This document shows, one piece after another, positions 4,255 through 20,466 of a stretch of DNA of 64,000 nucleotides. The position numbers and the translations under genes are program-made. The DNA is from Candidatus Omnitrophota bacterium (GTDB lineage: Bacteria; Omnitrophota; Gorgyraeia; Zapsychrales; Zapsychraceae). The notes beneath the pieces are model-generated. The model made no database searches, was not told where the DNA came from, and saw only the letters and a program-made list of their open reading frames with translations. Each line of letters begins with the position of its first letter. The first letter of the stretch is position 1. The stretch covers positions 139,876-203,875 of the forward strand of contig JACKFK010000006.1 of the NCBI GenBank assembly GCA_020632515.1, written 5' to 3'.

Positions 4255-4290
4255 TTGTAGTGCTTTTTTAAATTAGAGAAAGGATTGTTT

Positions 4291-4728: not shown

Positions 4729-4749
4729 CATTACGGCATTCTCTCATTC

Positions 4750-5232
4750 ATGAAAAAAATAAGGAATAGTTACGGATTTACTTTAGTTGAGTTGATGCTG
4801 GTTGTTTTGTTATTGACTGTAATTGCTGGGCTAACTTTGCCGAATTTCAGCCGTGGTTTTGATTCTATGAAGTTAAAACAAACGGCGAAAGATCTCACCT
4901 ATATGATGCGTTATGCGCAAAGCCGCGCGATCACCAAGAATAAACATGTCCGGTTGGTATTTGAAGAGAATTATCAGCGTTATCACTTAGAAGAAGAAAA
5001 CGGTAGTGATAATTTTGTGCAAGTGAACGGACGAGCTGGTCGGATTTTTCATATCCCTTCAGGAATACAAATTGAGAGTGATAATGATGAAATTCTTTTT
5101 TTTCCTGACGGGCAAATTGAGAAATTGTATGTTTACATTTGTCAGCGGGAAAAATGTTTTACGGTTTCCACAAAAGAACAGCGTGGTCATGCGTTGTTAT
5201 ACAACGAGAGGGTTGAGGAAGAAAGGTTATAG
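4750..5232 (+). CDS. gspH: Minor pseudopilin, GspH/FimT-like
   Basis: Prepilin site G|FTLVELMLV, size about 160 aa, TAKDL..MMRYAQSRAI motif typical of the GspH family, position after gspG. Confidence 0.75.
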   Translation: MKKIRNSYGFTLVELMLVVLLLTVIAGLTLPNFSRGFDSMKLKQTAKDLTYMMRYAQSRAITKNKHVRLVFEENYQRYHLEEENGSDNFVQVNGRAGRIFHIPSGIQIESDNDEILFFPDGQIEKLYVYICQREKCFTVSTKEQRGHALLYNERVEEERL

Positions 5233-8200
5233 ATCTATGTTGCCTGAAATGTTAATGCTACTCGTATTAGGCCCTAATTGAACATTTGGTTTTCCGTTGG
5301 CTTTAAAAGTGTTGCGTAAAACATCTACGTCTATTGAATTTGAAATGTACATAGCTCCGGTATTTCCTTCTAGATAATTGTCAGTGATATCAATAGCGCC
5401 GAGCATACCACGCTCAACTTTAACACCCCAACGGTTATTGAGCATACGATTGTTATGGACTTTAACTTGGGTTGAATCGCTTTGCATATAAACACCAATC
5501 TGTAGAGAACCAGTGAAAGTATTGTCATAAATATCCGCGCCTACTGTTGAACCTACCCGCACTCCACCGCCGGTGTTGCTGCCGCGCTGGCTGTTGTCAT
5601 GAATGTTACAGCCAAAAATGGTGACATCATCCCAGCCGACACTGGCCTGAATACCGTGATACCAGTTTGAATAGATTTCGCTATTTTTGATAACAACGCC
5701 TGAGCTGTGTTTTTCAACCGTATTCGAAGCGAGTTTAATACCGTGTCCGTTTCCGCCGCCGCCAGCTAAATTTGTTGTTGAGACTTTCACATTATCAATC
5801 GTGACATTGTGTGTTGGGTGTTGTAGGCTTCCTGTAATTCCGATTCCCCAATGGCCGTGGCCATGCGTTTCAGAGTTTTTAACGGTAATGAATTCTGTTT
5901 TTCCAGAACCGGAGAAACTGTCGTTTCCAATACGGAATCCAACAACCGCATTTTTGACGATGATACCGTCAACGATGATATGGCTCACATCATGAATATA
6001 AAGATTATTAACGCCAGTGCTGGTTTGAATTGTGACTTTCTTAGAGTTCACAGCTTTAATTGTGATCGGTTTAGTGCTGGTTCCACTGTTGGTGTGGCAT
6101 TCAACCGACTCATTATATAATCCATCTTCGATAAATAATGTTTCACCGGCTTTGACAGTATTACATCCTTTATTAATAGTTCTCCAAGGGCTTGTTTTAC
6201 TTCCGCTGTTACTATCATTTCCTATTAGCGAAACATAATAACTGGCTCCTGTTGAAGGTGGCGGAGGAGGCGGCGGTGGTGGAGGGGGCTCTGGTGATGG
6301 TAATTCAATATCAGTCTTGATTAAATAAGTTGAAAATTCAGCTGATGCGACAGGCACATCCACCGGGCCGTTATAATTTCCCGAAACTAAAGGTAACCCA
6401 AAGGCATCTTTGATATCATAAATTCCGAATGTTTGATTTTGTTCGACAACTTGTGATAAGTCGACGGCGACGGTTGTGTTGAGCTTCCAATTAAAGATAA
6501 GTAAGAAACTTTTCTTTGGATTGTAATCATTTGGAATGATACTGATCTTATTAGAAAGCGTTAAAGGGATTTCAGTGGAATTGTTATCAAACATTTTTCC
6601 AGCTAAAGAAGTTTCATTTTGCCATTGATTGATATTCAAAGACGTAAATGTTAGATTATCTGCTTTGAGAGATCCTTTAAATGTTCCAGAGAAAGTGTTG
6701 TCATCAATTACATCATCAGGATCTAAGTTTGAGCATCCTTCACAATTATTGTCAGTTGTTACAGCTGTAGAAATAGTGATATGATCTGCCGGCGGAAGAA
6801 GGAAGCTGTTTCCAGTATAAATATTTGGTGTAGGTTTAGAATTGTCAGCAATGTCATCGCCCCAGAATTTGGAAATTGTTAGTCCTCCTCGTCCGAGATA
6901 GTTGTTTTTAAATTCAGCTTGAAGCGGCATTAGCGCACCTAATATTGGTGAAGTGTTATAAAAGTAATTCTTATTTAAGGTGATGTGACTGGAAGAGTTT
7001 GTAAATTCTCCGATGATAAATGGACGGTTGGCAAAAATGTTTGATTCAAGGTATAGGCCGGTCACAGATGGAGTACAGTTTTGACATTCGCTGTAGGCGT
7101 GGAAATTGTAGGCTGCGTTAGCATCATTATCGATGAGAATATTATTTACAAAGTATTTCCATCCATTATTTTCATACGAATTACGGATTGTAATTCCATG
7201 CGCATTTGTTGTAGCCGTGGCACTTCCTTTTCCGGCTGAATGAATGATATTTCCGTAAAAGACATGATCCCGTCCGAAATCCCAGGCCTGAACACCTATC
7301 TTATTGAAGGTGTGGTGAATGTAGTTGTTAATAAGATGCAAACCTTCCGCTAGAACAACAACCCCGGCCCCACTGCTAATGCCGTCAGGGTCAGTGATCT
7401 CCATGCCCCAGATCCAGTTATATTTTCCTTTGATCGTGAAATTTCCTTCAATCGTAACTTGATTGTTATTGATCGCACGGAAAACAATAGGGTACTGTTT
7501 GCTTCCATTGGCTATTAATGTGTATGCGCCTTGATAGGTGCCATCCATCAGCCAGTATAAATCTCCGGCTGTGGCGTTGCTGATGGCCTGGTCGATATTC
7601 ATTGGATTTGCAGAGGTTCCAGCACCGGTACCGTTCGCGGAAACATAAAACTCTCTTAAAGGGATAAAAGTATTGATCCAAGGCAAGGGTTCATTATATT
7701 CAAAGGCTCCGATGTCATAATTAAAATCTAATGGGCGGTTTAGACCGTCAAAATCTTCGAATATATTTAAAATTTCTTTTCCGGAATTAACCGCAGGACT
7801 GGTTCGGCTTAATTTATAATCTTTGCTAGCCAGGCTGATAAAAAGCGGATCAAATTCATCTCCAATAAGATTATCCGTCAATATTGCTGTCGAGGAATTA
7901 TTCTTAAGGTTGGTGTTGTTTAAAGAGAGAAGGTTATTGGTTAAACTAACAGTTTTTGCCTGTGCGGATATTTCGATACCGGTATTAGTATGATAGGAGA
8001 TTAGATTGTTTGTTAAATCCGCTGTCTCGGCATTATTCGTCAAGAAAACGCCGTTTTGGTTATTTTGTGCAATTGTATTATTATGGATTGTTACGTTACT
8101 GGCTTGATCCATATAAATCCCGTTTTGACCAAAATGATGAATAAGTGAATTTGTGATAGCGATATTGTCGGCGGTTCCGGTGATAATGATTCCATGATTT

Positions 8201-11200
8201 GTTCCGTCTTTGAATTCACAGCGTTCAACTTTGATATGATTCGCGGTGGAATTGATTTCAAGGCCGTTAAGGATATTTTTTGCATCAAACGTCAGGTGAA
8301 TTAACTTAATAAATTGTTCACCCTGATTAAATTTTAATATCGAAGAGCCGGTAGTAGTTTTTAATACGACTATTTCATCAGGATAGCTTGTGATTATAAT
8401 TGGATCATCCCATGAAGTTCCGTTTGGAATGATAGTGTTTGCTGGAATTGTGTACATACCGTCGCGTAGATATAGAGTGTCTCCTGGAAGAAGCAGGCTT
8501 AAGGCTTTGGTGATTGTCTTTAATGGAAAGTTTTCAGTTCCAGGATTTGTGTCATTTCCTGTTGGCGAAAGATAATAGCTTTTATGATTTGTCTGCGTGT
8601 GATTCTCAACCGTGACATTGATAACGGATGATGTGGTTTGATTACCGGCAGCATCTTTGGCCACAGCTTTTAATGTATGAGTTCCGTTTGTATCCAACGT
8701 TGTGTTCCAATTGATAGTGAATGGTTCTTGTGTTTTGGCAATGCCTAAAGGTTTATTATCCAGCATGAATTGAACACTTGTTACACCGACATTATCGTTG
8801 GCTTGCGCGGTAATTGTAATCGTATTAAAAATAAGCGCGTTATTTAATGGTGCTGTTAATGAAATAGAAGGGGCGATATTGTCAACAGCTGGAGTTAATG
8901 AACAATCTATTTCACAACCGTCTCCGGAAATATCATTCGCATCATCACATTCTTCATTGAGTCCTGATTGCACAATGCCATCGCCGCAAGTTTCAACGAT
9001 ACAGTTGGCCGAGCATCCATCATTTGAGGTTTGATTACCATCATCGCACTGTTCGGGAGTTTCGGTTGTTCCGTTCCCGCATTGGGCAGCCGTAATTCCA
9101 GAGCAAGTGACGTTGCATTGGTTTGGTTGGCCATTTTGTTGACCGTCATCACAAATTTCGTTGCCATCAATGGATCCGTCTCCACAGAATAATTGACTGG
9201 AACAGTTGTTAAATCCTGAACACTGTTGATTACAACTTTTATTTCCAGGATATCCGGCTGTTGTTGTGCAGGATGTAAGGTTGCCATCACAAAGTTCACC
9301 AATGCCGGTTTGAATAATCTGATCTCCACAAATCTCATTTTTACATTGTGCGTTACAGCCATCATTCGATTTTATATTACCATCATCACATTGCTCGCCG
9401 GATTCGAGAATATTGTTGCCGCAGACTGCTGTAGTTTTAGCAGAGCAGGAGGCATTACATTTGTTAGGTTGGCCATTTAAAGAGCCATCATCGCATGTTT
9501 CAGTGCCATTGATGACGCCATCGCCGCAAAATTCGCTTTGACATTGCGCGTTACAACCGTCATTAGAGATAATGTTACCATCGTCGCATTCTTCGCCGGA
9601 TTCAAGAACGTTGTTGCCGCAGATACCTGTGGTCTGTCCGGAGCAGGTGCTGTTGCAATGATTTGGCTGTCCGTTTAACTGAGCTTCATCACAAATTTCC
9701 GATCCATTAACAATGCCGTCGCCGCAAGACTCACTGCTGATACAGGCTGTGAAACCAGTACATAAATTGTTGCATTCCTTTGTTCCTTTATAGCCTTTGT
9801 TCGTTGTGCAGCCTCTGCTGTTAGCATCGCATATTTCATGAACTCCTGAGCCATTATTCATTTGAACAATCCCATCGCCACAAATTGTAAGCTGACATGA
9901 GCTTGTACATTGTGAAGATCCTGTAGACCCGTCGTCGCATTCTTCGCCGTTTTCCTGGATGGAATTTCCGCAAACAGCAGTGGTGATGGCTGTACAACTG
10001 CTGTTACAATGATTGGCTTGCCCGTTAATTGTGCCTTCGTCACAGATTTCATGACCGTTTATAATGCCATCGCCGCAAAATTCTGAAGATACGCATGATG
10101 AAAAAGCTGTGCATTGATCGTTGCAGTATTTTGTTCCAGCATAACCGGTGCTAGTTAAACAGGATTCATTATTCGAATCGCAGATTTCAGTAACTTGATT
10201 TCCGTTTGGAGATTGTATAAGATGATCCCCGCATTGCGTGATTTTGCAGTCTATATTACATTGAGAAGATCCTGCAGAGCCGTCATCGCATTCCTCACCG
10301 TCTTCTATAATATCGTTACCACAAGTGCTGGGAACTTTACCATTACAGCTTATATTACACTGATTCGGTTGACCATTTAAAGAAGCGTCATCACAGGTTT
10401 CTTGGCCGTTAATGATGCCGTCGCCGCAGAAATTTGAACTCACACACATTGAAAATCCACTGCATTCTGTATTGCAGTCTTGAGAACCAACATACCCATC
10501 GGTAGTGATACATTGCTGCGAATTGCTATCGCAGGTTTCTGTTTTTTTCATGCCATTGAGAGATTGAATAATTTGATCGCCGCATTTGGTTAATTGACAT
10601 TGAGAGGTGCATTGATCAGATCCTTCACTTCCGTCATCACATGATTCTCCAGATTCTTGAACGCTATTGCCGCAAACAGGGGAAGTGATGGCTGTACATT
10701 GTTGATTACAATGGTTTGGTTGCCCGTTGAGGGTGCCATCATCACATTGCTCATGTCCATTGATAATTCCATCACCGCAAGATTCAATGGCTGTACATGT
10801 ATTGAAATTAGAGCATTGATTGTTACATTGTTGAGTACCTTTATATCCACTATCAGTCGTACAGGATTGACTGTTCGAATCACAGATTTCGTTAAAGTTA
10901 AATCCGTTTGGTTTTTGAATAGTTCCATCATTACAGTAGGTGAAGTTACATTGTGCGCTGCAACGCTGAGATCCATTGGGGCCATCGTCACAAATCTCAC
11001 TGCCTTCGATGATGTTGTTCCCACAAATTGCGGCGGTTAATCCGGAACAGGAGGTGTTGCATTTATTCGGCTGGCCGTTGGCAGTTCCGTTATCACAAAC
11101 CTCATTATTATTTTTTATACCATCGCCGCAAAATTCCAACTGACATGTATTGGTGCAGCCATCCCCGGAAACTGTATTACCATCATCACATTTCTCTCCG

Positions 11201-14200
11201 AGGGATGTCTGAAGAATACTGTCTCCACAGAATTCAATCTGACATTTGTTGGAACAGCCGTCACCGGAGAAAATATTATGATCGTCACATTGTTCGCCTA
11301 ATCCTTTTTGAATGATATTGTCTCCGCAAATTTCCAATTTACAGGAAGAAGAGCAGCCGTCTCCTGAGACTTTGTTGCCGTCATCGCAAAATTCTCCGAT
11401 AGCCGATTGACGGATGCCGTCGCCGCAAAATTCTAAAGTACAGGATGAGGAACAACCGTCTTTATCTGTTAAATTGCTGTCGTCGCATTCCTCACCAGAT
11501 TCTTTAAAACCGTTGCCGCAAACAGCGGGTGTGGTGCCGGAACATGTTGCATTACATTGATTCGGTTGACTGTTTAAATTTCCGTCATCACATTGCTCAT
11601 TTTGTTCAAGGATTTGGTTTCCGCAAATAGGAGCGGTAATTCCGCTGCAAGACGTGTTGCAAGCATTCGGTTGACCGTTTTGAACACCGTCGTCACAAAC
11701 TTCGTTATTGTTTTTGATGTTGTCCCCGCAAACTTCTTTTAAACATTGCGCGGTACAACCGTCGTTAGAAACAGTATTGCCATCGTCACATTGCTCGCCT
11801 AAAGTGCTTTGCGTGATGCCGTCTCCGCAGGACTCGCTGCGGCAGGTTTGGCTGCAGCCGTCACCGGATACTGTATTACCGTCATCACAGACTTCACCGA
11901 TTGTATTTTGAATGAGACCGTCTCCACAGAATTCTGTAATACACGATTTATTACAGCCGTCACCGGAAAGGTTGTTGCCGTCATCGCATTGCTCGCCTAA
12001 ACCAATTTGTGTGATTCCATCTCCACAGGTTTCAATTTGACAGGAGCTGGAGCAAGTATCTTCGGAGATTGTATTATGATCATCACAACTTTCCCCAGTT
12101 TCTTGAACACCGTTGCCGCAGATAGAAGGCGAGACGCCGTCGCAAGTTGTGCTGCAGGCATTGGGCGCGCCGTTGTTAATACCATCATCACACGTTTCTC
12201 CTAATTGAGATTGGATAATGCCGTCTCCACAAATTTCCTGAACACATTCATTGGTGCAACCATCGCCGGATATTTGATTACCGTCATCACATTCTTCATT
12301 AAGTCCAGGTTGAACGATCTGATCGCCACAGCTTTCCAAATGACATTGTGAAGAGCATCCATCTTCGGATTGGATGTTTCCATCGTCACAAACTTCATTG
12401 GCTTCTATAATACTATTGCCGCATGCTGAAGGAGTAACACCGTTGCAAGTTGCATTACAATGATTAGGAGTATTGTTTTGATTGCCATCATCACACGTTT
12501 CTTGGCCATTCAAAATACCGTCTCCACAAAACTCGACAGGTGAACATGACGTGAAGCTTAAGCAATCTCCTTGGCATACTTGAGTTCCTTGATAACCGTC
12601 GTTTGTAACACAGTTCTGCGTGTTGGAATCACAAATTTCTTGAACGGTATGTCCATTCGGTGTTTGCACAGTGCCGTCTCCGCAGGATGTTAAAAGACAG
12701 GAGGGTGTACAAAGAGAAGAGCCTTGCGTACCATCATCGCATTCTTCATTAGATTCTTTAACACCATTACCGCAGATAGGGTTCGTTATGCCGCTGCAGG
12801 AGTTGTTGCACGCATTCGGTGTTCCATTGTTTTCGCCATCATCACATGTTTCCGTACCGTTTTTAATGCCGTCGCCGCAAAATTCCGTGGAAGAACATCC
12901 CAAAAATCCAGAGCATGAAGTATTGCAGCTTTGAGAACCTGCATATCCTTCAGGTGTTGTACAGTTTTGTATATTTTTATCACAGACTTCGCTTAAATTT
13001 GGTTGAATGATACCGTCGCCACAAATTTCCTGTTTACAGCTGGCGTTACATCCATCCCCGCTGATCGTGTTATGATCGTCACAGTTTTCACCAAGCTTTG
13101 GTTGGATAATGCCATCGCCGCAAAATTCGATCTTACATTTCGAAGAGCATCCGTCTCCGGAAAAGAGGTTGTGGTCATCACATTCTTCACCCAGTCCTGG
13201 TTGAACAATGCTGTCTCCACAGATTTCAATTTGACACGATGCCGAACACCCATCGCCAGAGATGTTGTTCCCATCATCACATTTTTCACCAAGATTATTT
13301 TGACGAATGCCATCCCCACAGGATTCATTGTGGCATTGATTGTCACACCCATCACCATTAGCGGTGTTGCCGTCATCACATTCTTCTCCTAAACCGGATT
13401 GACGGATATTATCTCCGCAAAATTCCTTAATACAGTTTTGGGTGCAGCCGTCACCGGAAGAATGATTGCCATCATCGCATTCTTCAGAAGGTTCAATAAC
13501 GTTGTTACCGCAAACAGAGGGGCAGTCTTGTGAACATGTTAAGGAAGACTCTGCTGGTTCTGTACAAACACCGTCACCACAAAATAAATCAGAGCGGCAG
13601 TTTTCAAATGATGAGCATTGATCGTTACAATTTTGAATGCCCGGATAGCCGTTGGTTGTTGTACAATTTTTTTGCTCTGAATCACAGGTTTCATTTAATC
13701 CTGGTTGAATGATGCCGTCACCGCAAGATTCAATAATACATTGATTGGAACATCCATCTTCGGAGGATTGATTGCCGTCATCACATTGTTCACCTAGGCC
13801 TGATTGGATAATGCCGTCGCCACAAATTTCAATTTGGCAAGAAGCTGAACAACCGTCCTCGGAGTTTACGTTGTTGTCATCACATTCTTCCTGGGGTTCA
13901 AGAATTCCGTTTCCGCATTCAGCCGGACAATCAGTAGAACAATTAAGTGATGATTCAGCTGATGATGTACAGATGCCGTCTCCGCAGAATAAAGAAGTGG
14001 CACACTCGTTGAATGAAGCGCAGTTATCATTACAAGATTGTTCTCCTGGATATCCTTCTGCTGTTGTACAGTTTTGTGTGTTGGAATCGCAGGCTTCTCC
14101 AATACCTGTTTGCGTTATTTCATCTCCACAGAATTCGTTGATACAATTCGCTGAACAACCGTCGCCGGAATTAAGGTTGCCGTCATCACATTCTTCTTGC

Positions 14201-16407
14201 GGTTCGGTAATGCCATTTCCGCATTGGGCCGGACAATCGGTTAAACAATTGAAAGGTGATTCAACTGAAGAGGTGCAAATTTGGTCGCCGCAAAAGAGAT
14301 CGCTTTGACAAGTATTAAAAGCAGAACAGTCGTTTGTACACGTTTGAGTTCCGGGATATCCTGTGTCAGTGGTACAGTCTTGAATGTTGGTATCACAAAT
14401 TTCGTTTAATCCAGGTTGGGTGATTTGATCTCCACAGAATTCCAATTGGCAGGAAGAGGAGCAACCGTCTTCAGATGTTTGATTGCCGTCATCGCAAGCT
14501 TCATTAAGGGCGGATTGTTGAATACCGTCCCCGCAAAATTCGATAATACAATTTTCATTACAACCGTCTCCGGATTCGTTGTTTTGGTCGTCACATTCTT
14601 CACTTAAATTCGGATGGACAATGCCGTCGCCGCAAAATTCTACAATACATAGGTGATTACATCCATCTCCATCAATAGTGTTTTGATCATCACATTCTTC
14701 ACCAAGTTGAGGATGAAGAATGCCATCGCCGCAGATTTCAGCAACACAGTTGGTGTCACACCCATCGCCAATAATGCTGTTGCCATCATCGCATTGTTCG
14801 TTTAAAGATTTTTGGGTAATGCCATCCCCGCAGATTTCGATCTGACATGTGGCTGAACAACCGTCTTCGGAATCTTGATTTCCATCATCGCATGCTTCAC
14901 CATTTTCGATGACACTATTGCCGCAGACAGGTTGGCAATCATTGCCGCAGATATTTGCGTTCTCTGGTTGAGAACAGATACCATCGCCGCAAAAGAGGGT
15001 TGTTATACATGGCTCAAAGGCAGAACATTCAGTGTTACATGTTTGTGTTCCAGCGTACCCATCTGTTGTGGTACAAGCGATAATGTCTTGATCGCAGAAT
15101 TCATCGAGTCCTTTTTGGGTAACACCGTCGCCACAAAATTCTTTTAAACAGGCATCGGAACAACCGTCTTCGGATTGTTGGTTTGCATCGTCACATTCTT
15201 CACCGATTCCGGTTTGAATTGTTCCATCCCCGCAGAATTCGAGTTGACAAGAACTGGAGCATCCGTCTCGGTTAACAGTGTTTTGGTCGTCGCATTCTTC
15301 ACCAAGTCCTTTTTGGATGATTCCGTCTGAGCAGAACTCACGTTGACAAGAAGAGGAACATCCATCTTCAGAGTTTTGGTTACCGTCATCGCATTGTTCA
15401 CCTTGATTGGGATGCACAATTCCGTCACCACAAAATTCTAATAAACATTGCGCAGTACAGCCATCCCCATTGAGTTTATTTCCATCATCACATTCTTCGC
15501 CGAAAGAAGTTTGAATGTTACCATCTCCGCAGCGGTCAACGGTTCCTACTGTGATGCTGCCACCATAAATAACAGTTGGCGTGGTTGGGGCGGATGTATT
15601 TGTTGTTTGTTGGTTATTGGTTGAAGGCGCGTTTTCAGTTGAAGGTGATTCAGTAAATGTGCTGTTACTTGATGATGAGCTGTTAGATTGTTGCTTTTTA
15701 TTATTGGAGTCGTTCTTCGAAGATTTTTCCAGATCAGGACAGTCTAACGGACAAGATCGATTGTTTTCCCGCGGAGAAGAACAGATGCTGTCGCCGCAAA
15801 ATTCTCTCTGACAGTTTGCGGAACAACCGTCTCCGGAATTGATGTTACGGTCGTCGCATTGTTCCCCTAACCCAACCTGAACCAGCCCGTCTCCGCAGAA
15901 TTCGGTTTGACAGGTCGCAGAGCAACCGTCTTCAGATTTAAGGTTACCATCATCACATAATTCTCCTAAAGAGGTTTGAACAATACCATCAGAGCATAGT
16001 TCATACTGGCAATTTGCGGAACAGCCGTCTTCCGATTGGGTGTTGCCGTCATCGCATTGTTCATCGGAATCAATTTGCAAAATATTGTCGCCGCAGAATC
16101 CAGGGGTTGAAGCGTCTTCAGTTAATTGGGGCGAGTAAATCATTTCGAATGGCGCTGTTTTACCAGAATCTATGGTGTCGTATAGAGCTTCATAATCAAA
16201 AGCATTGGATGAAAAAGAATTGTAATTATTGGAGGAAATTATAGAGTTTTTGTTGGTATAGGAATTAAGGGGATTAAATCCATTTACTGTGATTCTATAA
16301 GGATTTTGCGAGCGAGCATAGTCCTGCCCAGACGCAGTCTTTATATGTAATCCGATTGTTGCGAATACGGTAATAATGAGTACGCTCTTTAAATAAGACT
16401 TAAACAT
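5227..16407 (-). CDS. Giant secreted protein 1 (3726 aa): signal peptide, about 67 Cys-rich repeats, Ig-like domain, 3 parallel beta-helix modules, poly-Pro linker
   Basis: Single uninterrupted ORF. N-terminal MFKSYLKSVLIITVFATIGLHIKTASG|Q looks like a Sec signal peptide. AGAGGA lies 3 nt upstream of the ATG. Domain content is listed in the sub-features. Confidence 0.9.
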   Translation of the reverse strand: MFKSYLKSVLIITVFATIGLHIKTASGQDYARSQNPYRITVNGFNPLNSYTNKNSIISSNNYNSFSSNAFDYEALYDTIDSGKTAPFEMIYSPQLTEDASTPGFCGDNILQIDSDEQCDDGNTQSEDGCSANCQYELCSDGIVQTSLGELCDDGNLKSEDGCSATCQTEFCGDGLVQVGLGEQCDDRNINSGDGCSANCQREFCGDSICSSPRENNRSCPLDCPDLEKSSKNDSNNKKQQSNSSSSSNSTFTESPSTENAPSTNNQQTTNTSAPTTPTVIYGGSITVGTVDRCGDGNIQTSFGEECDDGNKLNGDGCTAQCLLEFCGDGIVHPNQGEQCDDGNQNSEDGCSSSCQREFCSDGIIQKGLGEECDDQNTVNRDGCSSSCQLEFCGDGTIQTGIGEECDDANQQSEDGCSDACLKEFCGDGVTQKGLDEFCDQDIIACTTTDGYAGTQTCNTECSAFEPCITTLFCGDGICSQPENANICGNDCQPVCGNSVIENGEACDDGNQDSEDGCSATCQIEICGDGITQKSLNEQCDDGNSIIGDGCDTNCVAEICGDGILHPQLGEECDDQNTIDGDGCNHLCIVEFCGDGIVHPNLSEECDDQNNESGDGCNENCIIEFCGDGIQQSALNEACDDGNQTSEDGCSSSCQLEFCGDQITQPGLNEICDTNIQDCTTDTGYPGTQTCTNDCSAFNTCQSDLFCGDQICTSSVESPFNCLTDCPAQCGNGITEPQEECDDGNLNSGDGCSANCINEFCGDEITQTGIGEACDSNTQNCTTAEGYPGEQSCNDNCASFNECATSLFCGDGICTSSAESSLNCSTDCPAECGNGILEPQEECDDNNVNSEDGCSASCQIEICGDGIIQSGLGEQCDDGNQSSEDGCSNQCIIESCGDGIIQPGLNETCDSEQKNCTTTNGYPGIQNCNDQCSSFENCRSDLFCGDGVCTEPAESSLTCSQDCPSVCGNNVIEPSEECDDGNHSSGDGCTQNCIKEFCGDNIRQSGLGEECDDGNTANGDGCDNQCHNESCGDGIRQNNLGEKCDDGNNISGDGCSASCQIEICGDSIVQPGLGEECDDHNLFSGDGCSSKCKIEFCGDGIIQPKLGENCDDHNTISGDGCNASCKQEICGDGIIQPNLSEVCDKNIQNCTTPEGYAGSQSCNTSCSGFLGCSSTEFCGDGIKNGTETCDDGENNGTPNACNNSCSGITNPICGNGVKESNEECDDGTQGSSLCTPSCLLTSCGDGTVQTPNGHTVQEICDSNTQNCVTNDGYQGTQVCQGDCLSFTSCSPVEFCGDGILNGQETCDDGNQNNTPNHCNATCNGVTPSACGNSIIEANEVCDDGNIQSEDGCSSQCHLESCGDQIVQPGLNEECDDGNQISGDGCTNECVQEICGDGIIQSQLGETCDDGINNGAPNACSTTCDGVSPSICGNGVQETGESCDDHNTISEDTCSSSCQIETCGDGITQIGLGEQCDDGNNLSGDGCNKSCITEFCGDGLIQNTIGEVCDDGNTVSGDGCSQTCRSESCGDGITQSTLGEQCDDGNTVSNDGCTAQCLKEVCGDNIKNNNEVCDDGVQNGQPNACNTSCSGITAPICGNQILEQNEQCDDGNLNSQPNQCNATCSGTTPAVCGNGFKESGEECDDSNLTDKDGCSSSCTLEFCGDGIRQSAIGEFCDDGNKVSGDGCSSSCKLEICGDNIIQKGLGEQCDDHNIFSGDGCSNKCQIEFCGDSILQTSLGEKCDDGNTVSGDGCTNTCQLEFCGDGIKNNNEVCDNGTANGQPNKCNTSCSGLTAAICGNNIIEGSEICDDGPNGSQRCSAQCNFTYCNDGTIQKPNGFNFNEICDSNSQSCTTDSGYKGTQQCNNQCSNFNTCTAIESCGDGIINGHEQCDDGTLNGQPNHCNQQCTAITSPVCGNSVQESGESCDDGSEGSDQCTSQCQLTKCGDQIIQSLNGMKKTETCDSNSQQCITTDGYVGSQDCNTECSGFSMCVSSNFCGDGIINGQETCDDASLNGQPNQCNISCNGKVPSTCGNDIIEDGEECDDGSAGSSQCNIDCKITQCGDHLIQSPNGNQVTEICDSNNESCLTSTGYAGTKYCNDQCTAFSSCVSSEFCGDGIINGHEICDEGTINGQANHCNSSCTAITTAVCGNSIQENGEECDDGSTGSSQCTSSCQLTICGDGIVQMNNGSGVHEICDANSRGCTTNKGYKGTKECNNLCTGFTACISSESCGDGIVNGSEICDEAQLNGQPNHCNSTCSGQTTGICGNNVLESGEECDDGNIISNDGCNAQCQSEFCGDGVINGTETCDDGSLNGQPNKCNASCSAKTTAVCGNNILESGEQCDDGNIKSNDGCNAQCKNEICGDQIIQTGIGELCDGNLTSCTTTAGYPGNKSCNQQCSGFNNCSSQLFCGDGSIDGNEICDDGQQNGQPNQCNVTCSGITAAQCGNGTTETPEQCDDGNQTSNDGCSANCIVETCGDGIVQSGLNEECDDANDISGDGCEIDCSLTPAVDNIAPSISLTAPLNNALIFNTITITAQANDNVGVTSVQFMLDNKPLGIAKTQEPFTINWNTTLDTNGTHTLKAVAKDAAGNQTTSSVINVTVENHTQTNHKSYYLSPTGNDTNPGTENFPLKTITKALSLLLPGDTLYLRDGMYTIPANTIIPNGTSWDDPIIITSYPDEIVVLKTTTGSSILKFNQGEQFIKLIHLTFDAKNILNGLEINSTANHIKVERCEFKDGTNHGIIITGTADNIAITNSLIHHFGQNGIYMDQASNVTIHNNTIAQNNQNGVFLTNNAETADLTNNLISYHTNTGIEISAQAKTVSLTNNLLSLNNTNLKNNSSTAILTDNLIGDEFDPLFISLASKDYKLSRTSPAVNSGKEILNIFEDFDGLNRPLDFNYDIGAFEYNEPLPWINTFIPLREFYVSANGTGAGTSANPMNIDQAISNATAGDLYWLMDGTYQGAYTLIANGSKQYPIVFRAINNNQVTIEGNFTIKGKYNWIWGMEITDPDGISSGAGVVVLAEGLHLINNYIHHTFNKIGVQAWDFGRDHVFYGNIIHSAGKGSATATTNAHGITIRNSYENNGWKYFVNNILIDNDANAAYNFHAYSECQNCTPSVTGLYLESNIFANRPFIIGEFTNSSSHITLNKNYFYNTSPILGALMPLQAEFKNNYLGRGGLTISKFWGDDIADNSKPTPNIYTGNSFLLPPADHITISTAVTTDNNCEGCSNLDPDDVIDDNTFSGTFKGSLKADNLTFTSLNINQWQNETSLAGKMFDNNSTEIPLTLSNKISIIPNDYNPKKSFLLIFNWKLNTTVAVDLSQVVEQNQTFGIYDIKDAFGLPLVSGNYNGPVDVPVASAEFSTYLIKTDIELPSPEPPPPPPPPPPPSTGASYYVSLIGNDSNSGSKTSPWRTINKGCNTVKAGETLFIEDGLYNESVECHTNSGTSTKPITIKAVNSKKVTIQTSTGVNNLYIHDVSHIIVDGIIVKNAVVGFRIGNDSFSGSGKTEFITVKNSETHGHGHWGIGITGSLQHPTHNVTIDNVKVSTTNLAGGGGNGHGIKLASNTVEKHSSGVVIKNSEIYSNWYHGIQASVGWDDVTIFGCNIHDNSQRGSNTGGGVRVGSTVGADIYDNTFTGSLQIGVYMQSDSTQVKVHNNRMLNNRWGVKVERGMLGAIDITDNYLEGNTGAMYISNSIDVDVLRNTFKANGKPNVQLGPNTSSINISGNIDL
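5230..6255 (-). other. Parallel beta-helix module 3 (C-terminal) of giant protein 1
   Basis: SYYVSLIGNDSNSGSKTSPWRTINKGCNTVKAGETLFIEDGLYNES cap. Repeated turns (HGIGITG, HGIKLAS, HGIQASV, NN.W). Confidence 0.7.
6256..6288 (-). repeat. 11 consecutive proline codons (linker PSPE-P11-S)
   Basis: Read directly: ccc cct cca cca ccg ccg cct cct ccg cca cct on the minus strand. Confidence 0.95.
6301..7670 (-). other. Parallel beta-helix module 2 plus a C-terminal beta-sandwich-like domain (about 6301-6700) of giant protein 1
   Basis: FYVSANGTGAGTSANPMNIDQAISNATAGDLYWLMDGTY cap. Repeated NN.I.H turns. Distal segment SLNINQWQ...FSTYLIKTD. Confidence 0.55.
7690..8585 (-). other. Parallel beta-helix module 1 of giant protein 1
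   Basis: N-cap YYLSPTGNDTNPGTENFPLKTITKAL....PGDTLYLRDGMY. Repeated N.I..N....GI turns. C-terminal SPAVNSG....DFDG..RP....YDIGAFEY. Confidence 0.7.
8600..8890 (-). other. Ig-like (bacterial Ig / cadherin-like) domain of giant protein 1
   Basis: DNIAPSISLTAP...ANDNVGVTSVQF.LDNKPLG...PF.INWNT....NGTHTLKAVAKDAAGN...S..INVTV. Confidence 0.6.
8900..16098 (-). repeat. Array of about 67 cysteine-rich repeats (33-52 aa units; consensus CGDG(I/V).Q..LGE.CDDGN..SGDGCS..C..E.), interrupted once by an S/N/T/Q-rich linker (about 15560-15735)
   Basis: Hand parse of the translation gives 4 units before the linker and 63 after. The consensus matches my memory of the Myxococcus cysteine-rich repeat (TIGR02232 / Pfam DUF4215, PF13948). 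Not verified by HMM. Confidence 0.8.
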
Positions 16408-16617
16408 TCATCCTCTGCTTAAGTCCTAAATAAGGAAGCCTGTTTCTTGAACTACAAGAGACAGGCCTAAACCATTCAAAATCAAAATTACCATCTTGAT
16501 TTTGGCGGCTAGGCTATCCTTATTTAAGGACCCTTGGCTTTGCTCTTACAAGTAATTGCTTGTAAGACTCTTCAAAACTTAATTAATGTTTGAAGAGGTC
16601 CCTGGGTTACCCCAGGT
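16408..16617 (-). promoter_or_regulatory. Highly structured candidate 5' leader of giant gene 1 (six helices)
   Basis: Pairings read directly:
- 16423-16440 with 16512-16531 (18 bp, 2 bulges), enclosing hairpins 16441-16449/16455-16463 and 16477-16485/16496-16504.
- 16544-16552/16559-16567.
- 16568-16576/16589-16597.
- 16601-16606/16611-16616, whose loop reads GUAA on the minus strand.
Strand assignment is inferred. Confidence 0.4.
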
Positions 16618-16778
16618 TTGCCTTTTACATTTCAAGAATTTGCTGTTTGCTTATTCAAGTATATACGGTAATTGAATAAAAATAATCGAGTGAATTGGAG
16701 ATGCAGGAAAACGTTTTCTTTTGCTGTTTTTTAGAGTTTTTTAAATATGGGGTATTTACGTATTACTAAATACATATC

Positions 16779-17114: not shown

Positions 17115-17507
17115 ATGAAAAATGAGAGTGGTTCAGTTTTATTAGAAGCCCTGCTGGCAACTGTTATTTTATCTGTTAGTATTACAATTATTATTCAGTC
17201 ATTAACCTCGAGTTTACGGGCCGCGCAGTATAGTTCTCAATATACCGAAGGTTTAATTCTCATTGATGATCAGTTAACCGAATATTTTCAAGAGGGGGTA
17301 GTTGAGTCGGATTTGAATGAGAATGGAAATCTTGCCGCCCCTTATGAAAAATATCAATATAAAGCAAGCACAGAACCTGCAGAGGAATTCGGTGAAAATA
17401 TTAATATTCTTGACTACCAACTAAATTGGCAAAGCGGACGACGGAAGAATAATATTAAAGTGCAAACATTATTGTTTAAAAAAGATGATGAAACAGCAAT
17501 TCAATAA
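17115..17507 (+). CDS. gspI: Minor pseudopilin, GspI-like
   Basis: N-terminus MKNESG|SVLLEALLATVILSV has G at -1 and E at +5, with an atypical S at +1. Size 130 aa. Position before a GspJ-like gene. Confidence 0.6.
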   Translation: MKNESGSVLLEALLATVILSVSITIIIQSLTSSLRAAQYSSQYTEGLILIDDQLTEYFQEGVVESDLNENGNLAAPYEKYQYKASTEPAEEFGENINILDYQLNWQSGRRKNNIKVQTLLFKKDDETAIQ

Positions 17508-18234
17508 TATTTCAAGAGCAAGGCTTATAACGAATAATGGATTTACACTTATCGAGTTATTATTAGCTATAAGCATTTTTTCAATTATAGGGTTAACAGT
17601 TTATAGTGTTTTTTCAAGTGGTATTCGGTTAAGTGAATATTCCGAAGGGCAAGGAGATATTTATCGTCAAGCTAGATGGATTTTGGATTTAATGAGTGCT
17701 GATTTAGAAGCTGCTGTAAATTATGATTTTAGTAGTTTTTATGCTGAAAAAAGTGCTTTTTTAGGAAATAAAGAAGAAATTCAATTCTTGAAAGAAACTA
17801 CGGGAGGTTTAAAAGTTATTAAATATTTTTTGATTGTTCCGGAGAGTTCATCTATTCATAAGGTTATTATTGGAAAAAAATATAAAAAGAATGTTGATAT
17901 TAATTTAGTAAACTCTCAAGCAGAAAGTAGGTATTTTTTAGTTCGAGAAGAAAAATCTTTTTTAGATTTCTTAACTGATGTTAATAGTGATAAAAATAGT
18001 TTGGAAGTTATAGCAACGAATTTCGCGGCAGATGGTTTGCGTTTTAGTTATGGTTTCTTAGATCAGCAAGATTCGTCTGAATCTAGTTGGCGTGATCAAT
18101 GGGACAGGAAGTATGTGCCTATAAACGTTTACGTTGAGATGGATTTAATATCAGAATCAGAAGAAAAAATTATTCATTTTGAAAAGAAAGTCTTAATTCC
18201 AACCGGATTCTGGGGGGAAGAACAGCAGGCATAA
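17485..18234 (+). CDS. gspJ: Minor pseudopilin, GspJ/PulJ-like
   Basis: Prepilin site NNG|FTLIELLLAISIFSIIG, about 250 aa, overlaps the end of gspI. Confidence 0.65.
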   Translation: MMKQQFNNISRARLITNNGFTLIELLLAISIFSIIGLTVYSVFSSGIRLSEYSEGQGDIYRQARWILDLMSADLEAAVNYDFSSFYAEKSAFLGNKEEIQFLKETTGGLKVIKYFLIVPESSSIHKVIIGKKYKKNVDINLVNSQAESRYFLVREEKSFLDFLTDVNSDKNSLEVIATNFAADGLRFSYGFLDQQDSSESSWRDQWDRKYVPINVYVEMDLISESEEKIIHFEKKVLIPTGFWGEEQQA

Positions 18235-18311
18235 AGTTGTTTTTATCTTCATAGAAGATTTTACTTTTTGTTATAATGAGCAATATATAAAAAATAAACA
18301 CACATCTATTT

Positions 18312-19736: not shown

Positions 19737-19753
19737 GTTGAATAAGGAATAAA

Positions 19754-20284: not shown

Positions 20285-20466
20285 AAGTTTTTTAAGTTTT
20301 AAATATTGACTTCTTTCCACCGGAAATGGCATAAATTTCCTTAAATCTGATTGACAGACTAAAACGGATATATAACAATACCTTTATATATAATATTATT
20401 TTAATGTATAAATTATTCTGTAAATTTACTATTAATAAAAATTTTTAGGACGATTGAAAGTGTGGA

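What the first reader, a model, noticed from the sequence alone, without database searches (positions are those of the whole stretch)
8900..16098. About 67 tandem cysteine-rich repeats (~290 Cys) form a 7-kb array in giant protein 1
My hand parse gives three unit types:
- 33-aa core units, CGDG(I/V).Q..LGE.CDDGN..SGDGCS..C..E., with 4 Cys each.
- 48-52-aa long units, which insert CD(S/T)N.Q.C(T/V)T..GY.GTQ.C...C..F..C, with 6 Cys each; there are 11 of them.
- 22-aa cap-like units such as CGDGICTSSAESSLNCSTDCPAE.

That totals about 290 cysteines, an even number per unit, which fits an all-disulfide rod. The consensus fits the Myxococcus cysteine-rich repeat (TIGR02232 / DUF4215) as I remember it. 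An array this long, fused to beta-helix enzyme-like modules and placed in a T2SS locus, is not something I know to be described.

Folding would need about 145 periplasmic disulfides before export, which is a strong demand on Dsb-type machinery.
Basis: partly seen in the sequence, partly recalled or inferred. Interest (0 to 1): 0.7.

Follow-up and report, generated by a model that had tools for sequence, protein, structure and literature searches.

The report
Long cysteine-rich repeat stalk protein
A 3,726-residue secreted protein of an uncultured Omnitrophota bacterium carries 67 tandem copies of a known calcium-and-disulfide mini-domain ahead of three sugar-binding or sugar-cutting modules; the array is real and very long, but it is neither the longest of its kind nor a new kind.

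Summary
One ORF on the minus strand (5227-16407, 3,726 aa) has 290 Cys between aa 104 and 2503. An automated parse by Cys spacing gives 67 units, including 11 six-Cys long units and 5 caps.

The family call is also right: TIGR02232 scores 1027 bits and PF13948/DUF4215 597 bits. The long and cap units, and weakly the e units, are not recognised by the family model on their own.

One unit of this family is already solved as domain M3 of human PAPP-A. Its authors report density for two Ca2+ there, and the AlphaFold core unit superposes on PAPP-A2 at 0.6 A.

The novelty claim is overstated:
- Public metagenome contigs hold arrays with 102 and 93 units.
- Another MAG protein has the same unit grammar plus a beta-helix.
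- Large proteins next to T2SS genes are already described in Omnitrophota.

Most likely this is a Sec/T2SS-exported, Ca2+- and disulfide-stiffened acidic spacer that carries beta-helix glycan-active heads. A candidate c-di-GMP-I-type riboswitch lies in its leader.

The parts
5227..16407 (-). Giant protein 1: complete ORF of 3,726 aa. It starts at an ATG preceded by the Shine-Dalgarno sequence GAGGA.
16327..16407 (-). Probable Sec signal peptide, aa 1-27: K3 and K7, then the hydrophobic stretch SVLIITVFATIGL, then ASG|Q. It is the only hydrophobic segment in the protein, and there is no lipobox Cys.
   Evidence: Read directly from the sequence. The hydropathy scan finds one segment only. No predictor was run, so the cleavage site is inferred.
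16096..16326 (-). N-terminal Cys-free region of unknown function, aa 28-104.
   Evidence: One search gives only a sub-threshold Pfam hit (GspA_SrpA_N, E = 0.011). One search finds no ortholog in the metagenome contigs.
15730..16095 (-). Array part 1, aa 105-226: units a a a cap.
15532..15729 (-). Low-complexity S/N/T/Q/P-rich linker that interrupts the array, aa 227-292.
8893..15531 (-). Array part 2, aa 293-2505: 63 units in the order aaaaLcb aaaaLcb Lcb aLcb aaaaL deL db a D' b aaa dd b aaa (deL)x4 db db L db a.
   Evidence: TIGR02232/PF13948
9622..11130 (-). Higher-order repeat, aa 1760-2262: four 117-aa d-e-L supra-units plus a closing d. A fifth d-e-L copy lies at aa 1177-1293.
   Evidence: Cys autocorrelation at lags 117 and 234; 51-64% aa identity between copies; AF2 model.
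8665..8871 (-). Bacterial Ig-like domain (Big_7), aa 2513-2581.
   Evidence: E = 6e-17; PDB entry 9kvu, a bacterial Ig domain.
7693..8562 (-). Right-handed parallel beta-helix module 1, aa 2616-2905. It hits Beta_helix, NosD, DUF1565 and Pel9A-like, plus choice-of-anchor Q.
6388..7527 (-). Module 2, aa 2961-3340. It has no Pfam hit. It opens with the same 'YVSxxG...' cap motif as modules 1 and 3, so it is presumed to be a beta-helix.
   Evidence: no family hit; the sequence. The fold is inferred, not tested.
6256..6288 (-). Run of 11 prolines (aa 3374-3384) forming a linker before the last module.
5230..6258 (-). Beta-helix module 3, aa 3384-3726. It hits Beta_helix and DUF1565, weakly Chondroitinase B, and partially PelN (73 bits against a cut-off of 740).
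16500..16631 (-). Candidate riboswitch aptamer of the c-di-GMP-I clan in the 5' leader, about 93 nt upstream of the ATG. It carries a 72-nt two-hairpin insertion.
   Evidence: RF03167: 33.1 bits against a gathering score of 59; E = 3e-6 to 9e-6. (fold z = -5.2). (core shared with a canonical c-di-GMP-I element in L010). It falls below the gathering score.
1316..5232 (+). First half of the T2SS cluster: gspE (1316-3013), gspF (3025-4254), gspG (4285-4728) and a gspH-like pseudopilin (4750-5232). This operon converges on the 3' end of the giant gene and overlaps it by 6 nt.
17115..22585 (+). Second half of the T2SS cluster. It holds a pseudopilin-like ORF (17115-17507, no family hit) and an N-methyl pseudopilin (17485-18234). 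These are followed by a PilM/PilN fusion (18312-19736), a PilO/GspM homolog (19754-20284), an unknown ORF (20467-21039) and the secretin GspD (21011-22585). This operon diverges from the giant gene.

Best explanation
Giant protein 1 is an extracellular modular protein of an uncultured Omnitrophota bacterium. It is the same species as MAG GCA_020430025.1.

**Proposed pathway**
1. A Sec signal peptide takes the protein across the inner membrane.
2. The 67 tandem TIGR02232/DUF4215-type mini-domains (2,335 aa, 290 Cys) fold one by one. Each is locked by two or three intra-unit disulfides and probably by Ca2+ bound to the invariant D/E/N positions.
3. Together the units form a thin, strongly acidic, extended spacer.
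4. The spacer carries one Ig-like domain and three right-handed beta-helix modules of the pectate-lyase/NosD type. These bind or cut polysaccharide.
5. The T2SS whose genes flank the gene on both sides is the likely export route.
6. The likely use is to reach, hold and digest glycan on a host or prey envelope, or on environmental polymer.
7. A c-di-GMP-type riboswitch candidate in the leader may set expression.

**Shown here**
- The ORF, the unit counts and family membership.
- The domain order and the gene neighbourhood.
- Identity of the core fold with PAPP-A M3.

**Inferred**
- Signal-peptide cleavage, and the presence of disulfides and Ca2+ in this protein.
- Rod-like rigidity, and a total length of roughly 0.1-0.2 um. 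That figure assumes 2-3 nm per unit by analogy with cbEGF-type modules; it was not measured.
- T2SS dependence, enzymatic activity, and the biological target.
For: **Family and fold**
- TIGR02232 scores 1027 bits and PF13948 597 bits.
- Scanned one unit at a time, a, b, d and D' pass the cut-off.
- The AF2 core units have pLDDT 84-95.
- Foldseek hits only PAPP-A and PAPP-A2; the hit to 8sl1_A has 0.6 A rmsd and 53% identity over 34 columns.
- The profile of the core units hits pappalysin-1 residues 866-898 at E = 2e-12. That peptide scores 55.7 bits on TIGR02232.

**Ca2+**
- D3, E12, D15, D16, N18 and D23 are invariant across 23 core units.
- The array holds 408 D+E against 62 K+R.
- The PAPP-A.STC2 cryo-EM paper reports map density for two Ca2+ ions in M3, residues S944-G995, which contains the unit (PMC9579167).

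**Extracytoplasmic location**
- There is one N-terminal hydrophobic segment with an ASG|Q site.
- The array is 12% Cys, against about 1% in neighbouring proteins.

**Heads**
- Hits to Big_7, Beta_helix, NosD, DUF1565, Pel9A-like and choice-of-anchor Q.
- PDB sequence hits to a rhamnogalacturonan lyase, a xylosidase and a mannuronan epimerase.

**T2SS link**
- gspE, gspF, gspG and gspH lie on one side; pseudopilins, a PilMN fusion, gspM and the secretin lie on the other.
- An independent 99%-identical MAG contig shows the same junction of the giant gene's 3' end with gspH, gspG and gspF.
- In related Omnitrophota, the same T2SS is flanked by other large repeat proteins (PKD/Ig, RHS, FG-GAP, Big_2). 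This pattern is published (bioRxiv 10.1101/2023.11.21.568195 and 10.64898/2026.06.07.730766).

**A family, not a one-off**
- P0222 has 19 units with the same vocabulary and order, followed by fn3 and a beta-helix.
Against: - No anchor was found: no lipobox, no C-terminal sorting tag, no second TM segment. It is therefore unclear what the 'stalk' stands on. If the protein is released, the purpose of a 2,300-aa spacer is unexplained.
- Model coordinates could not be read. Disulfide pairing, Ca2+ ligands, inter-unit geometry and length are all unmeasured. The pTM values of 0.48 and 0.35 say nothing firm about rigidity.
- Cap units (pLDDT 45-48) and the L inserts (54-80) are poorly or only moderately modelled. 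The d-e-L model has no significant PDB match.
- The T2SS association is not conserved. None of 80 related T2SS loci carries a DUF4215 ORF. None of 80 other DUF4215 loci has T2SS genes within 6 kb.
- No catalytic residues were checked in the beta-helices. The PelN hit is far below its cut-off (73 against 740 bits).
- No Dsb-type gene lies in the window. This is uninformative for the rest of the genome.
Confidence: 0.55

Rival explanations
1. The protein is a cell-surface-retained adhesin. It stays attached to the producer, through an uncleaved N-terminal signal-anchor or through the aa 28-104 domain. The array then acts as a presentation stalk for binding heads, in the manner proposed for the Cys-rich stalk of Myxococcus TraA. 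The beta-helices would be lectin-like rather than catalytic.
For: - TraA's Cys-rich repeats are proposed to be a rigid presentation stalk stiffened by dozens of disulfides (PMC3325183 and PMC12045341).
- L092, one of the longest DUF4215 arrays, ends in a hydrophobic stretch followed by RRRRR, which resembles a sorting tag. Some arrays of this family are therefore probably surface-anchored.
- Published work proposes adhesion roles for large Omnitrophota proteins.
Against: - This protein has no C-terminal tag, no lipobox and only an N-terminal hydrophobic segment.
- In a diderm, an inner-membrane anchor at the N-terminus would leave the array spanning the envelope.
- TraA's repeat is a different family, TIGR04201, and it is not hit here.
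Confidence: 0.2
2. The protein is an extracellular matrix or adhesive scaffold. The polyanionic, Ca2+-binding array is itself the functional part, cross-linking or sticking to surfaces through Ca2+ bridges. The C-terminal modules merely tether it to polysaccharide.
For: - Net charge is extreme: 408 D+E against 62 K+R.
- The only paper that mentions DUF4215 finds 12 repeats in a diatom adhesive-trail protein (bioRxiv 10.1101/2023.03.06.531300).
- The family is widespread and is fused to many different partners.
Against: - There is no evidence of self-association.
- The strict unit grammar and the conserved intra-unit Cys framework fit a defined spacer better than an amorphous glue.
- Three enzyme-like beta-helices make a large investment for a mere tether.
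Confidence: 0.15
3. The T2SS neighbourhood is coincidental. The gene inserted between gspH and gspI in this lineage and uses another export route, or none beyond Sec.
For: - The gene is on the opposite strand and splits the T2SS cluster into two operons.
- None of 80 related T2SS loci has a DUF4215 gene.
- None of 80 other DUF4215 loci has T2SS genes nearby.
Against: - The same junction appears in an independent MAG.
- Relatives carry other large secreted-type proteins next to the same T2SS, as published.
- GC3 of the gene (0.36-0.37) matches that of gspE-H (0.35-0.38), so there is no sign of recent foreign origin.
- From established knowledge of the Dickeya Out system, beta-helix pectate lyases are classical T2SS cargo.
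Confidence: 0.25
4. The array is an assembly artefact, with the repeat copy number inflated or collapsed, or the gene is a decaying pseudogene.
For: The short-read MAG contig that carries the 99%-identical gene breaks inside the gene before reaching the array. This shows that the region is hard to assemble.
Against: - The reading frame is uninterrupted for 11.2 kb.
- Every unit keeps its Cys framework.
- Copies share at most 68% DNA identity, so they cannot be confused by an assembler.
- About half of the conserved residues differ in codon between copies, which fits long purifying selection on the protein sequence.
Confidence: 0.02

Closest known systems
TIGR02232 'cysteine-rich acidic repeat' / Pfam PF13948 (DUF4215) arrays in other bacterial and metagenomic proteins
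   Same: The 4-Cys unit is the same: CGDG..Q..LGE.CDDGN...GDGCS..C..E. The units are arranged in tandem and the proteins are extracellular multidomain proteins. In a library of 1.84 billion representatives, 28,806 carry the repeat.
   Different: - This array uses six spacing classes in a fixed order, including 6-Cys long units and caps that the family models do not recognise.
- It is long (48 units by my HMM, 67 by Cys parse) but not the longest. L085 has 102 units and 445 Cys, L092 has 93, and L107 at least 62.
- No function has been published for the family.
Domain M3 of human PAPP-A / PAPP-A2 (for example PDB 8A7E, 7UFG, 8SL1)
   Same: It contains one bona fide TIGR02232 unit (55.7 bits; E = 2e-12). 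This is the only solved structure of the fold. The AF2 core unit matches it at 0.6 A. M3 is reported to show map density for two Ca2+ ions (PMC9579167).
   Different: In PAPP-A it is a single unit buried in a metazoan metalloprotease scaffold, not a tandem array. The PAPP-A authors state that no sequence similarity had been reported for M1-M6.
P0222, a 2,642-aa protein of MAG GCA_003522725.1 (contig DPIG01000053.1)
   Same: It has the same unit vocabulary (a, b, d, L, cap) and the same syntax (L-cap-b and d-b-L-d-b). The array is followed by fn3 domains and a DUF1565/Pel9A-type beta-helix.
   Different: It has 19 units rather than 67, Ig-like domains ahead of the array, and no e units. No T2SS genes are visible in its 9.4-kb contig, and there is no riboswitch-like element upstream.
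Cys-rich stalk of Myxococcus xanthus TraA (TIGR04201)
   Same: It is a tandem Cys-rich repeat region in a secreted bacterial protein. It is proposed to be a disulfide-stiffened presentation stalk.
   Different: It is a different repeat family and is not hit here. It has about 70 Cys, and the protein carries an N-terminal PA14-like head and a MYXO-CTERM anchor. Here the heads are C-terminal and no anchor was found.
Omnitrophota giant proteins (Archaeovorin and Dockerin types) next to T2SS-like loci
   Same: The phylum is the same, and both are large extracellular repeat proteins adjacent to T2SS genes. Both contain putative adhesion and carbohydrate-degrading content.
   Different: Those proteins exceed 30,000 aa and have many TM segments, SecA DEAD domains, or dockerin/TSP3 repeats. 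None of these features is present here. Neither paper mentions DUF4215 or cysteine.
Ca2+-binding, disulfide-rich tandem modules of eukaryotic extracellular proteins (cbEGF, LDL-A, TSP type 3 and LNR repeats)
   Same: The working principle is the same: a small module with two or three disulfides plus a Ca2+ site formed by D/E/N residues, repeated to build an extended element. This comparison comes from my own knowledge; LNR Ca2+ binding is described.
   Different: There is no sequence or significant fold match to these modules. The resemblance is functional only.

Membership tests
TIGR02232 / PF13948 (DUF4215) cysteine-rich acidic repeat | Whole-protein HMM score above the curated cut-off | tested here: met
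   TIGR02232 scores 1027 bits against a cut-off of 20.8, in 37 stretches. PF13948 scores 597.2 bits against 27, in 32 stretches.
TIGR02232 / PF13948 (DUF4215) cysteine-rich acidic repeat | Each unit on its own matches the model | tested here: inconclusive
   Scanning one or two representative units of each class against the 20.8-bit cut-off gives:
- a: 46.5 bits, pass.
- b: 49.6 bits, pass.
- d: 26.1 bits, pass.
- D': 22.1 bits, pass.
- e: 15.6 bits, below the cut-off.
- L (48 aa and 52 aa) and cap: no hit.

If each class behaves like its representative, 46 of the 67 units pass, 5 are marginal and 16 fail.
TIGR02232 / PF13948 (DUF4215) cysteine-rich acidic repeat | Four-Cys framework with conserved CDDGN and DGC acidic motifs | tested here: met
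   C1, D3, E12, C14, D15, D16, N18, D23, G24, C25, C29 and E32 are invariant in 23 core units. The spacing C-13/11-C-10/11/12-C-4-C holds in 51 units.
TIGR02232 / PF13948 (DUF4215) cysteine-rich acidic repeat | Same fold as the solved unit (PAPP-A M3) | tested here: met
   Foldseek matches the AF2 model to 8sl1_A over 34 columns at 0.6 A rmsd and 53% identity. No hits appear outside PAPP-A and PAPP-A2. This compares a prediction with an experiment; it is not an experimental structure of this protein.
TIGR02232 / PF13948 (DUF4215) cysteine-rich acidic repeat | Disulfide pairing and Ca2+ occupancy | not testable with these tools
   Model coordinates are not returned. Ca2+ in PAPP-A M3 is taken from PMC9579167.
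Type II secretion substrate | N-terminal Sec or Tat signal peptide | tested here: inconclusive
   The sequence has the classical n-h-c layout with ASG|Q, and there is a single hydrophobic segment. No dedicated predictor was available.
Type II secretion substrate | Genetic linkage to a T2SS | tested here: met
   The gene is embedded between gspE-F-G-H and the pseudopilin, PilMN, gspM and gspD genes. The same junction appears in an independent MAG.
Type II secretion substrate | Export depends on the T2SS | not testable with these tools
   This needs genetics or proteomics on an uncultured organism.
Omnitrophota giant proteins (Archaeovorin / Dockerin type) | Tens of thousands of residues, many TM segments, a SecA DEAD domain, or dockerin/TSP3 repeats | tested here: not met
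   The protein has 3,726 aa and one hydrophobic segment, with no SecA, dockerin or TSP3 Pfam hit.
TraA-type Cys-rich stalk (TIGR04201 with MYXO-CTERM) | TIGR04201 repeat and a C-terminal sorting tag | tested here: not met
   TIGR04201 is absent from the NCBIfam hits. The C-terminus ...SSINISGNIDL has no hydrophobic or basic tail.
Polysaccharide lyase or hydrolase of the right-handed beta-helix class | Beta-helix fold signature | tested here: met
   Modules 1 and 3 hit PF13229, PF05048, PF07602 and PF22842. Module 2 has no hit.
Polysaccharide lyase or hydrolase of the right-handed beta-helix class | Membership of a defined enzyme family, or presence of catalytic residues | tested here: not met
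   The PelN equivalog scores 73 bits against a cut-off of 740. Chondroitinase B scores 21.7 against 24. The PDB matches cover only short N-terminal cap segments. Catalytic residues were not examined.
c-di-GMP-I riboswitch clan (CL00126) | Covariance-model score at or above the gathering threshold | tested here: not met
   RF03167 scores 33.1 bits against a gathering score of 59, with E = 3e-6 to 9e-6 in a local search. It is absent from the whole-window gathering scan. The shortfall goes with a 72-nt insertion where the model has 18 nt.
c-di-GMP-I riboswitch clan (CL00126) | Conserved core motifs and a stable fold in a 5' leader | tested here: met
   The GGCAAACC motif, a GNRA-capped hairpin, the GCAAAGCC motif and a second hairpin are all present. 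The fold has z = -5.2. The core aligns with a canonical RF01051 element in L010. The element lies 93 nt upstream of the ATG.

The most novel reading that the evidence does not exclude
The array is a Ca2+-rigidified rod of roughly 0.1-0.2 um, about as long as the ultra-small Omnitrophota cell itself. It would be threaded lengthwise through the flanking T2SS secretin and used as a 'reach' element. That element would place three glycan-degrading beta-helix heads on a host or prey envelope. Production would be switched by c-di-GMP through an unusual GEMM-I variant riboswitch that carries a two-hairpin insertion. The ordered unit grammar (a-runs, L-cap-b, d-e-L) would then encode defined stiff segments and hinges.
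Probability: 0.12. Interest if true: 0.65.

Novelty: new member of a known kind. Interest (0 to 1): 0.35.

Why it matters
- DUF4215/TIGR02232 is very common, with 28,806 cluster representatives in this search, and it has no published function.
- This protein is a clean, fully assembled case. It has a long ordered array, identifiable heads, an export system next door and a possible second-messenger switch.
- The link to the solved PAPP-A M3 domain, with its reported Ca2+ density, gives the family a structural and chemical footing: two disulfides plus Ca2+ per unit. It also gives an annotation for a PAPP-A domain whose authors knew of no sequence relatives.
- For Omnitrophota biology, it adds a mid-sized, Cys-rich class to the variable large cargo genes found beside their T2SS loci.
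- None of this overturns current understanding. The value lies in annotation and in offering a tractable model for a neglected repeat.

Tried and rejected
1. **Exact look-up of GspE.** The window's GspE is not on record in the contig index. The organism was identified instead through P0001, which is 99% identical and belongs to a Candidatus Omnitrophota MAG.
2. **phmmer of a 233-aa array segment against PDB sequences.** It gave 0 hits even at E = 10. The PAPP-A match appeared only with Foldseek and with a profile of the core units.
3. **'Longest array' idea.** The representative-library search suggested this array ranked first, with 48 units against at most 47. I rejected that after the metagenome scan showed arrays of 102, 93, at least 62 and at least 53 units. 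That top-150 list was ranked with a profile built from this protein.
4. **Conservation of a DUF4215 gene in related T2SS loci.** It is absent from all 80 loci.
5. **General T2SS association of DUF4215 arrays.** T2SS genes are absent from all 80 metagenome loci.
6. **Orthologs of the N-terminal region, to compare leaders and array lengths.** None were found; only the repeat region matched.
7. **Third homolog search, with an L-cap-b block.** It returned only short fragments that cover the b unit.
8. **Foldseek of the d-e-L model against PDB.** Nothing was significant.
9. **Recent tandem expansion.** Rejected, because copies share 55-68% DNA identity.
10. **Horizontal transfer, inferred from the raised GC.** Rejected. 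The excess is in GC2 (0.48), which reflects Cys and Gly codons. GC3 (0.37) equals that of gspE-H.
11. **TraA as the family.** Rejected, because TraA's repeat is TIGR04201.
12. **Riboswitch-like elements elsewhere.** None were found upstream of giant protein 2 or of the P0222 gene.
13. **Dsb genes.** None are in the window. The rest of the genome was not available.

Full report
**1. What is there**

The interval 8900-16098 lies inside one ORF on the minus strand, 5227-16407, which encodes 3,726 aa. The ATG at 16407 is preceded by GAGGA.

The neighbouring proteins of the window have about 1% Cys; the array has 12.1%.

**2. Automated parse**

Segmenting by Cys-to-Cys spacing gives 67 units:

| Class | Count | Length | Cys spacing or note |
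|---|---|---|---|
| a | 24 | 33 aa | C13C11C4C5 |
| b | 10 | 31 aa | 4 Cys |
| e | 5 | 30 aa | 4 Cys |
| d | 11 | 35 aa | C11C12C4C8, 'NGQPNxCN' |
| D' | 1 | 37 aa | hybrid of a and d |
| L | 11 | 48 aa (6), 52 aa (5) | 6 Cys |
| cap | 5 | 22-23 aa | 4 Cys |

Its three-type scheme is too coarse.
- The order is not random:
  - L is always followed by cap or d.
  - Cap is followed by b, except for one case where the linker follows.
  - d is followed by e or b, with one d-d exception.
  - e is always followed by L.
- The N-terminal half is built from (a)n-L-cap-b blocks. The C-terminal half is built from 117-aa d-e-L blocks and d-b pairs.
- Cys autocorrelation peaks at lags 33, 66, 117 and 234.
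- A 66-aa S/N/T/Q/P-rich linker (aa 227-292) interrupts the array once.

**3. Real and old**

- Copies are 51-66% identical in protein and 55-68% in DNA.
- About half of the conserved residues use different codons.
- TRF reports only four short arrays at about 76% identity.

This excludes recent slippage and assembler confusion. It fits the general finding for Omnitrophota repeat proteins reported in bioRxiv 10.64898/2026.06.07.730766.

The raised GC of the array (0.44) comes from second codon positions (GC2 0.48). GC3 (0.37) matches gspE-H.

**4. Family**

- TIGR02232 scores 1027 bits in 37 stretches. PF13948/DUF4215 has E = 4e-184 in 32 stretches.
- Scanned singly, representative a, b, d and D' units pass the TIGR02232 cut-off. 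The e unit is below it. The L and cap units are not recognised.
- The core consensus is CGDGI.Q..LGE.CDDGN..SGDGCS..C..EF, with C1, D3, E12, C14, D15, D16, N18, D23, G24, C25, C29 and E32 invariant.
- The array carries 408 D+E against 62 K+R.

**5. Structure**

- AF2 on aa 293-525 (a a a a L cap b; 48-row alignment) gave mean pLDDT 80. The core units reach 84-95, the L insert 56-75 and the cap 45-48.
- Foldseek against the PDB returned only PAPP-A and PAPP-A2. The hit to 8sl1_A covers 34 columns at 0.6 A rmsd and 53% identity.
- A profile of the core units hits pappalysin-1 residues 866-898, CGDGIIQKDQGEQCDDMNKINGDGCSLFCRQEV, at E = 2e-12. That peptide scores 55.7 bits on TIGR02232.
- In prepro numbering this is 947-979, inside domain M3 (S944-G995). 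The cryo-EM paper on the PAPP-A.STC2 complex reports map density for two Ca2+ ions in M3. It also says no sequence similarity had been reported for M1-M6 (PMC9579167).
- One unit of this family therefore has an experimental structure, and Ca2+ binding by the acidic positions is plausible.
- AF2 on aa 1760-2028 (d e L d e L d) gave mean pLDDT 74. It places a beta-hairpin over the C.T..GY.G...C part of each L unit. Foldseek found no significant PDB match for this model.
Cys pairing, Ca2+ ligands, rise per unit and rigidity are unmeasured. My length estimate of 0.1-0.2 um rests only on an analogy with modules of similar size.

**6. Rest of the protein**

- The N-terminus has an n-h-c signal-peptide layout ending in ASG|Q. 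It is the only hydrophobic segment, with no lipobox and no C-terminal sorting tag.
- After the array come, in order:
  - a Big_7 Ig-like domain (aa 2513-2581);
  - a beta-helix hitting Beta_helix, NosD, DUF1565, Pel9A-like and choice-of-anchor Q (aa 2616-2905);
  - a module without any Pfam hit (aa 2961-3340);
  - an 11-proline linker;
  - a third beta-helix (aa 3384-3726).
- PDB sequence matches are to a rhamnogalacturonan lyase, a xylosidase and a mannuronan C5-epimerase, but they cover short segments only.
- The PelN and chondroitinase B hits are below their cut-offs. Enzymatic activity is an inference.

**7. Neighbourhood and organism**

- gspE, gspF, gspG and a gspH-like pseudopilin (1316-5232, plus strand) converge on the gene's 3' end.
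- Pseudopilins, a PilM/N fusion, a PilO/GspM homolog and the secretin (17115-22585, plus strand) diverge from its 5' end.
- P0001 is 99% identical to the C-terminal 966 aa and comes from a Candidatus Omnitrophota MAG (GCA_020430025.1). Its contig shows the same junction with gspH, gspG and gspF, and it breaks inside the gene.
- The best GspE relatives (62-71% identity) are all Omnitrophota MAGs.
- None of these 80 loci carries a DUF4215 ORF. Many carry other large repeat proteins (PKD/Ig, RHS, FG-GAP, Big_2) beside gspE.
- This matches the published picture of a conserved T2SS-like locus with variable large cargo (bioRxiv 10.1101/2023.11.21.568195 and 10.64898/2026.06.07.730766). Neither paper mentions DUF4215 or cysteine.

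**8. How unusual is it?**

- A profile search of 1.84 billion representatives found 28,806 proteins with the repeat. The top hits had up to 47 units, against 48 for this protein by the same HMM.
- That ranking was misleading. A scan of JGI metagenome contigs turned up ORFs with 102 units/445 Cys (L085), 93 units/386 Cys (L092), at least 62 (L107) and at least 53 (L091).
- P0222 (2,642 aa, MAG GCA_003522725.1) has 19 units with the same vocabulary and syntax, followed by fn3 domains and a beta-helix. P0258, an Omnitrophica fragment, has L units.
- The protein therefore belongs to an existing, unstudied family. It is long but not extreme.
- The literature holds one mention of DUF4215, in a diatom adhesive protein with 12 repeats.
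- TraA's Cys-rich 'stalk' is a different family, TIGR04201, and serves only as a functional analogue.

**9. Explanation**

- The best reading is a Sec-exported, probably T2SS-secreted protein. Its tandem mini-domains, each locked by disulfides and probably by Ca2+, form a long acidic spacer carrying glycan-binding or glycan-cutting beta-helix heads.
- The main weakness is that no anchor was found, so the role of so long a spacer is open.
- Rival readings are a surface-retained adhesin, a Ca2+-dependent matrix scaffold, and a coincidental T2SS neighbourhood.
No Dsb-type gene is in the window, and the rest of the genome was not available.

**10. Found in passing**

- The 5' leader holds a match to the c-di-GMP-I riboswitch clan (RF03167) at 16500-16631 on the minus strand. 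It scores 33.1 bits against a gathering score of 59, with E about 3e-6 to 9e-6.
- The match includes GGCAAACC, a GNRA-capped hairpin and GCAAAGCC, plus a 72-nt two-hairpin insertion. The fold has z = -5.2.
- A canonical c-di-GMP-I element (39.3 bits against a gathering score of 35) sits between gspE and gspF in a related Omnitrophota MAG, L010. It shares the core motifs.
- This is a candidate only, not a demonstrated riboswitch.

Noticed in passing
window 16500-16631 (-): A riboswitch-like element of the c-di-GMP-I clan sits in the 5' leader of the giant gene (RF03167: 33.1 bits, below the gathering score of 59; E about 3e-6 to 9e-6). It has GGCAAACC, a GUAA-capped hairpin and GCAAAGCC, with a 72-nt insertion that forms two extra hairpins. 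The fold z-score is -5.2.
   Followed up: partly
L010:11804-11926 (+): A related Omnitrophota MAG (JABMSB010000076.1) has a canonical c-di-GMP-I riboswitch above the gathering score (39.3 against 35 bits). It lies between gspE and gspF of the homologous T2SS cluster, followed by about 870 nt without an obvious ORF.
   Followed up: partly
L085:853-12033 (+) and L092:356-10975 (+): Two metagenome ORFs of about 3,700 and 3,540 codons consist almost entirely of DUF4215 units: 102 units/445 Cys and 93 units/386 Cys. L092 ends in GLGLLLLAALLLRRRRR, which resembles a C-terminal sorting or anchor tag.
   Followed up: partly
human PAPP-A, prepro residues 947-979 (PDB 8A7E, 7UFG, 8HGG; PAPP-A2 in 8SL1): Domain M3 of PAPP-A is a clear TIGR02232 unit (55.7 bits). 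The structure paper says no sequence similarity had been reported for M1-M6, and it reports density for two Ca2+ ions in M3.
   Followed up: yes
window 28528-37995 (+): A second large protein (3,155 aa) has several beta-helix regions (Beta_helix, Pel9A-like, DUF1565, NosD), fn3, DUF5060 and RGI-lyase-like segments. It has only 19 Cys (0.6%) and no DUF4215 unit. No riboswitch-like element lies upstream.
   Followed up: partly
window 1316-5232 versus 17485-22585: The giant gene splits the T2SS cluster into two operons. The halves differ in third-position GC: gspE-H have 0.35-0.38, while gspJ, pilMN, gspM and gspD have 0.21-0.29.
   Followed up: no
window 5227-5232: The 3' end of the giant gene overlaps the 3' end of the convergent gspH-like gene by 6 nt, so no intergenic terminator can sit between them.
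   Followed up: no
window, whole: GC skew is positive in every 2-kb bin except 10-16 kb, inside the array on the minus strand. Most ORFs of 150 aa or more in the window are on the plus strand.
   Followed up: no
L003, L016, L019, L046, L054 (ORFs flanking gspE): Related Omnitrophota T2SS loci carry different large repeat proteins next to gspE:
- PKD, Big_9 and He_PIG domains (ORF of 2,262 aa).
- RHS, TcdB and FG-GAP domains (2,072 aa).
- FG-GAP and CarboxypepD_reg domains (2,033 aa).
- Big_2, LTD and BNR domains (1,724 aa).
- One ORF of 1,619 aa with no Pfam hit.

   Followed up: partly
window 6256-6288 (-): A run of 11 consecutive prolines (aa 3374-3384) links the second and third C-terminal modules. 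The near-identical MAG copy, P0001, has one proline fewer.
   Followed up: no
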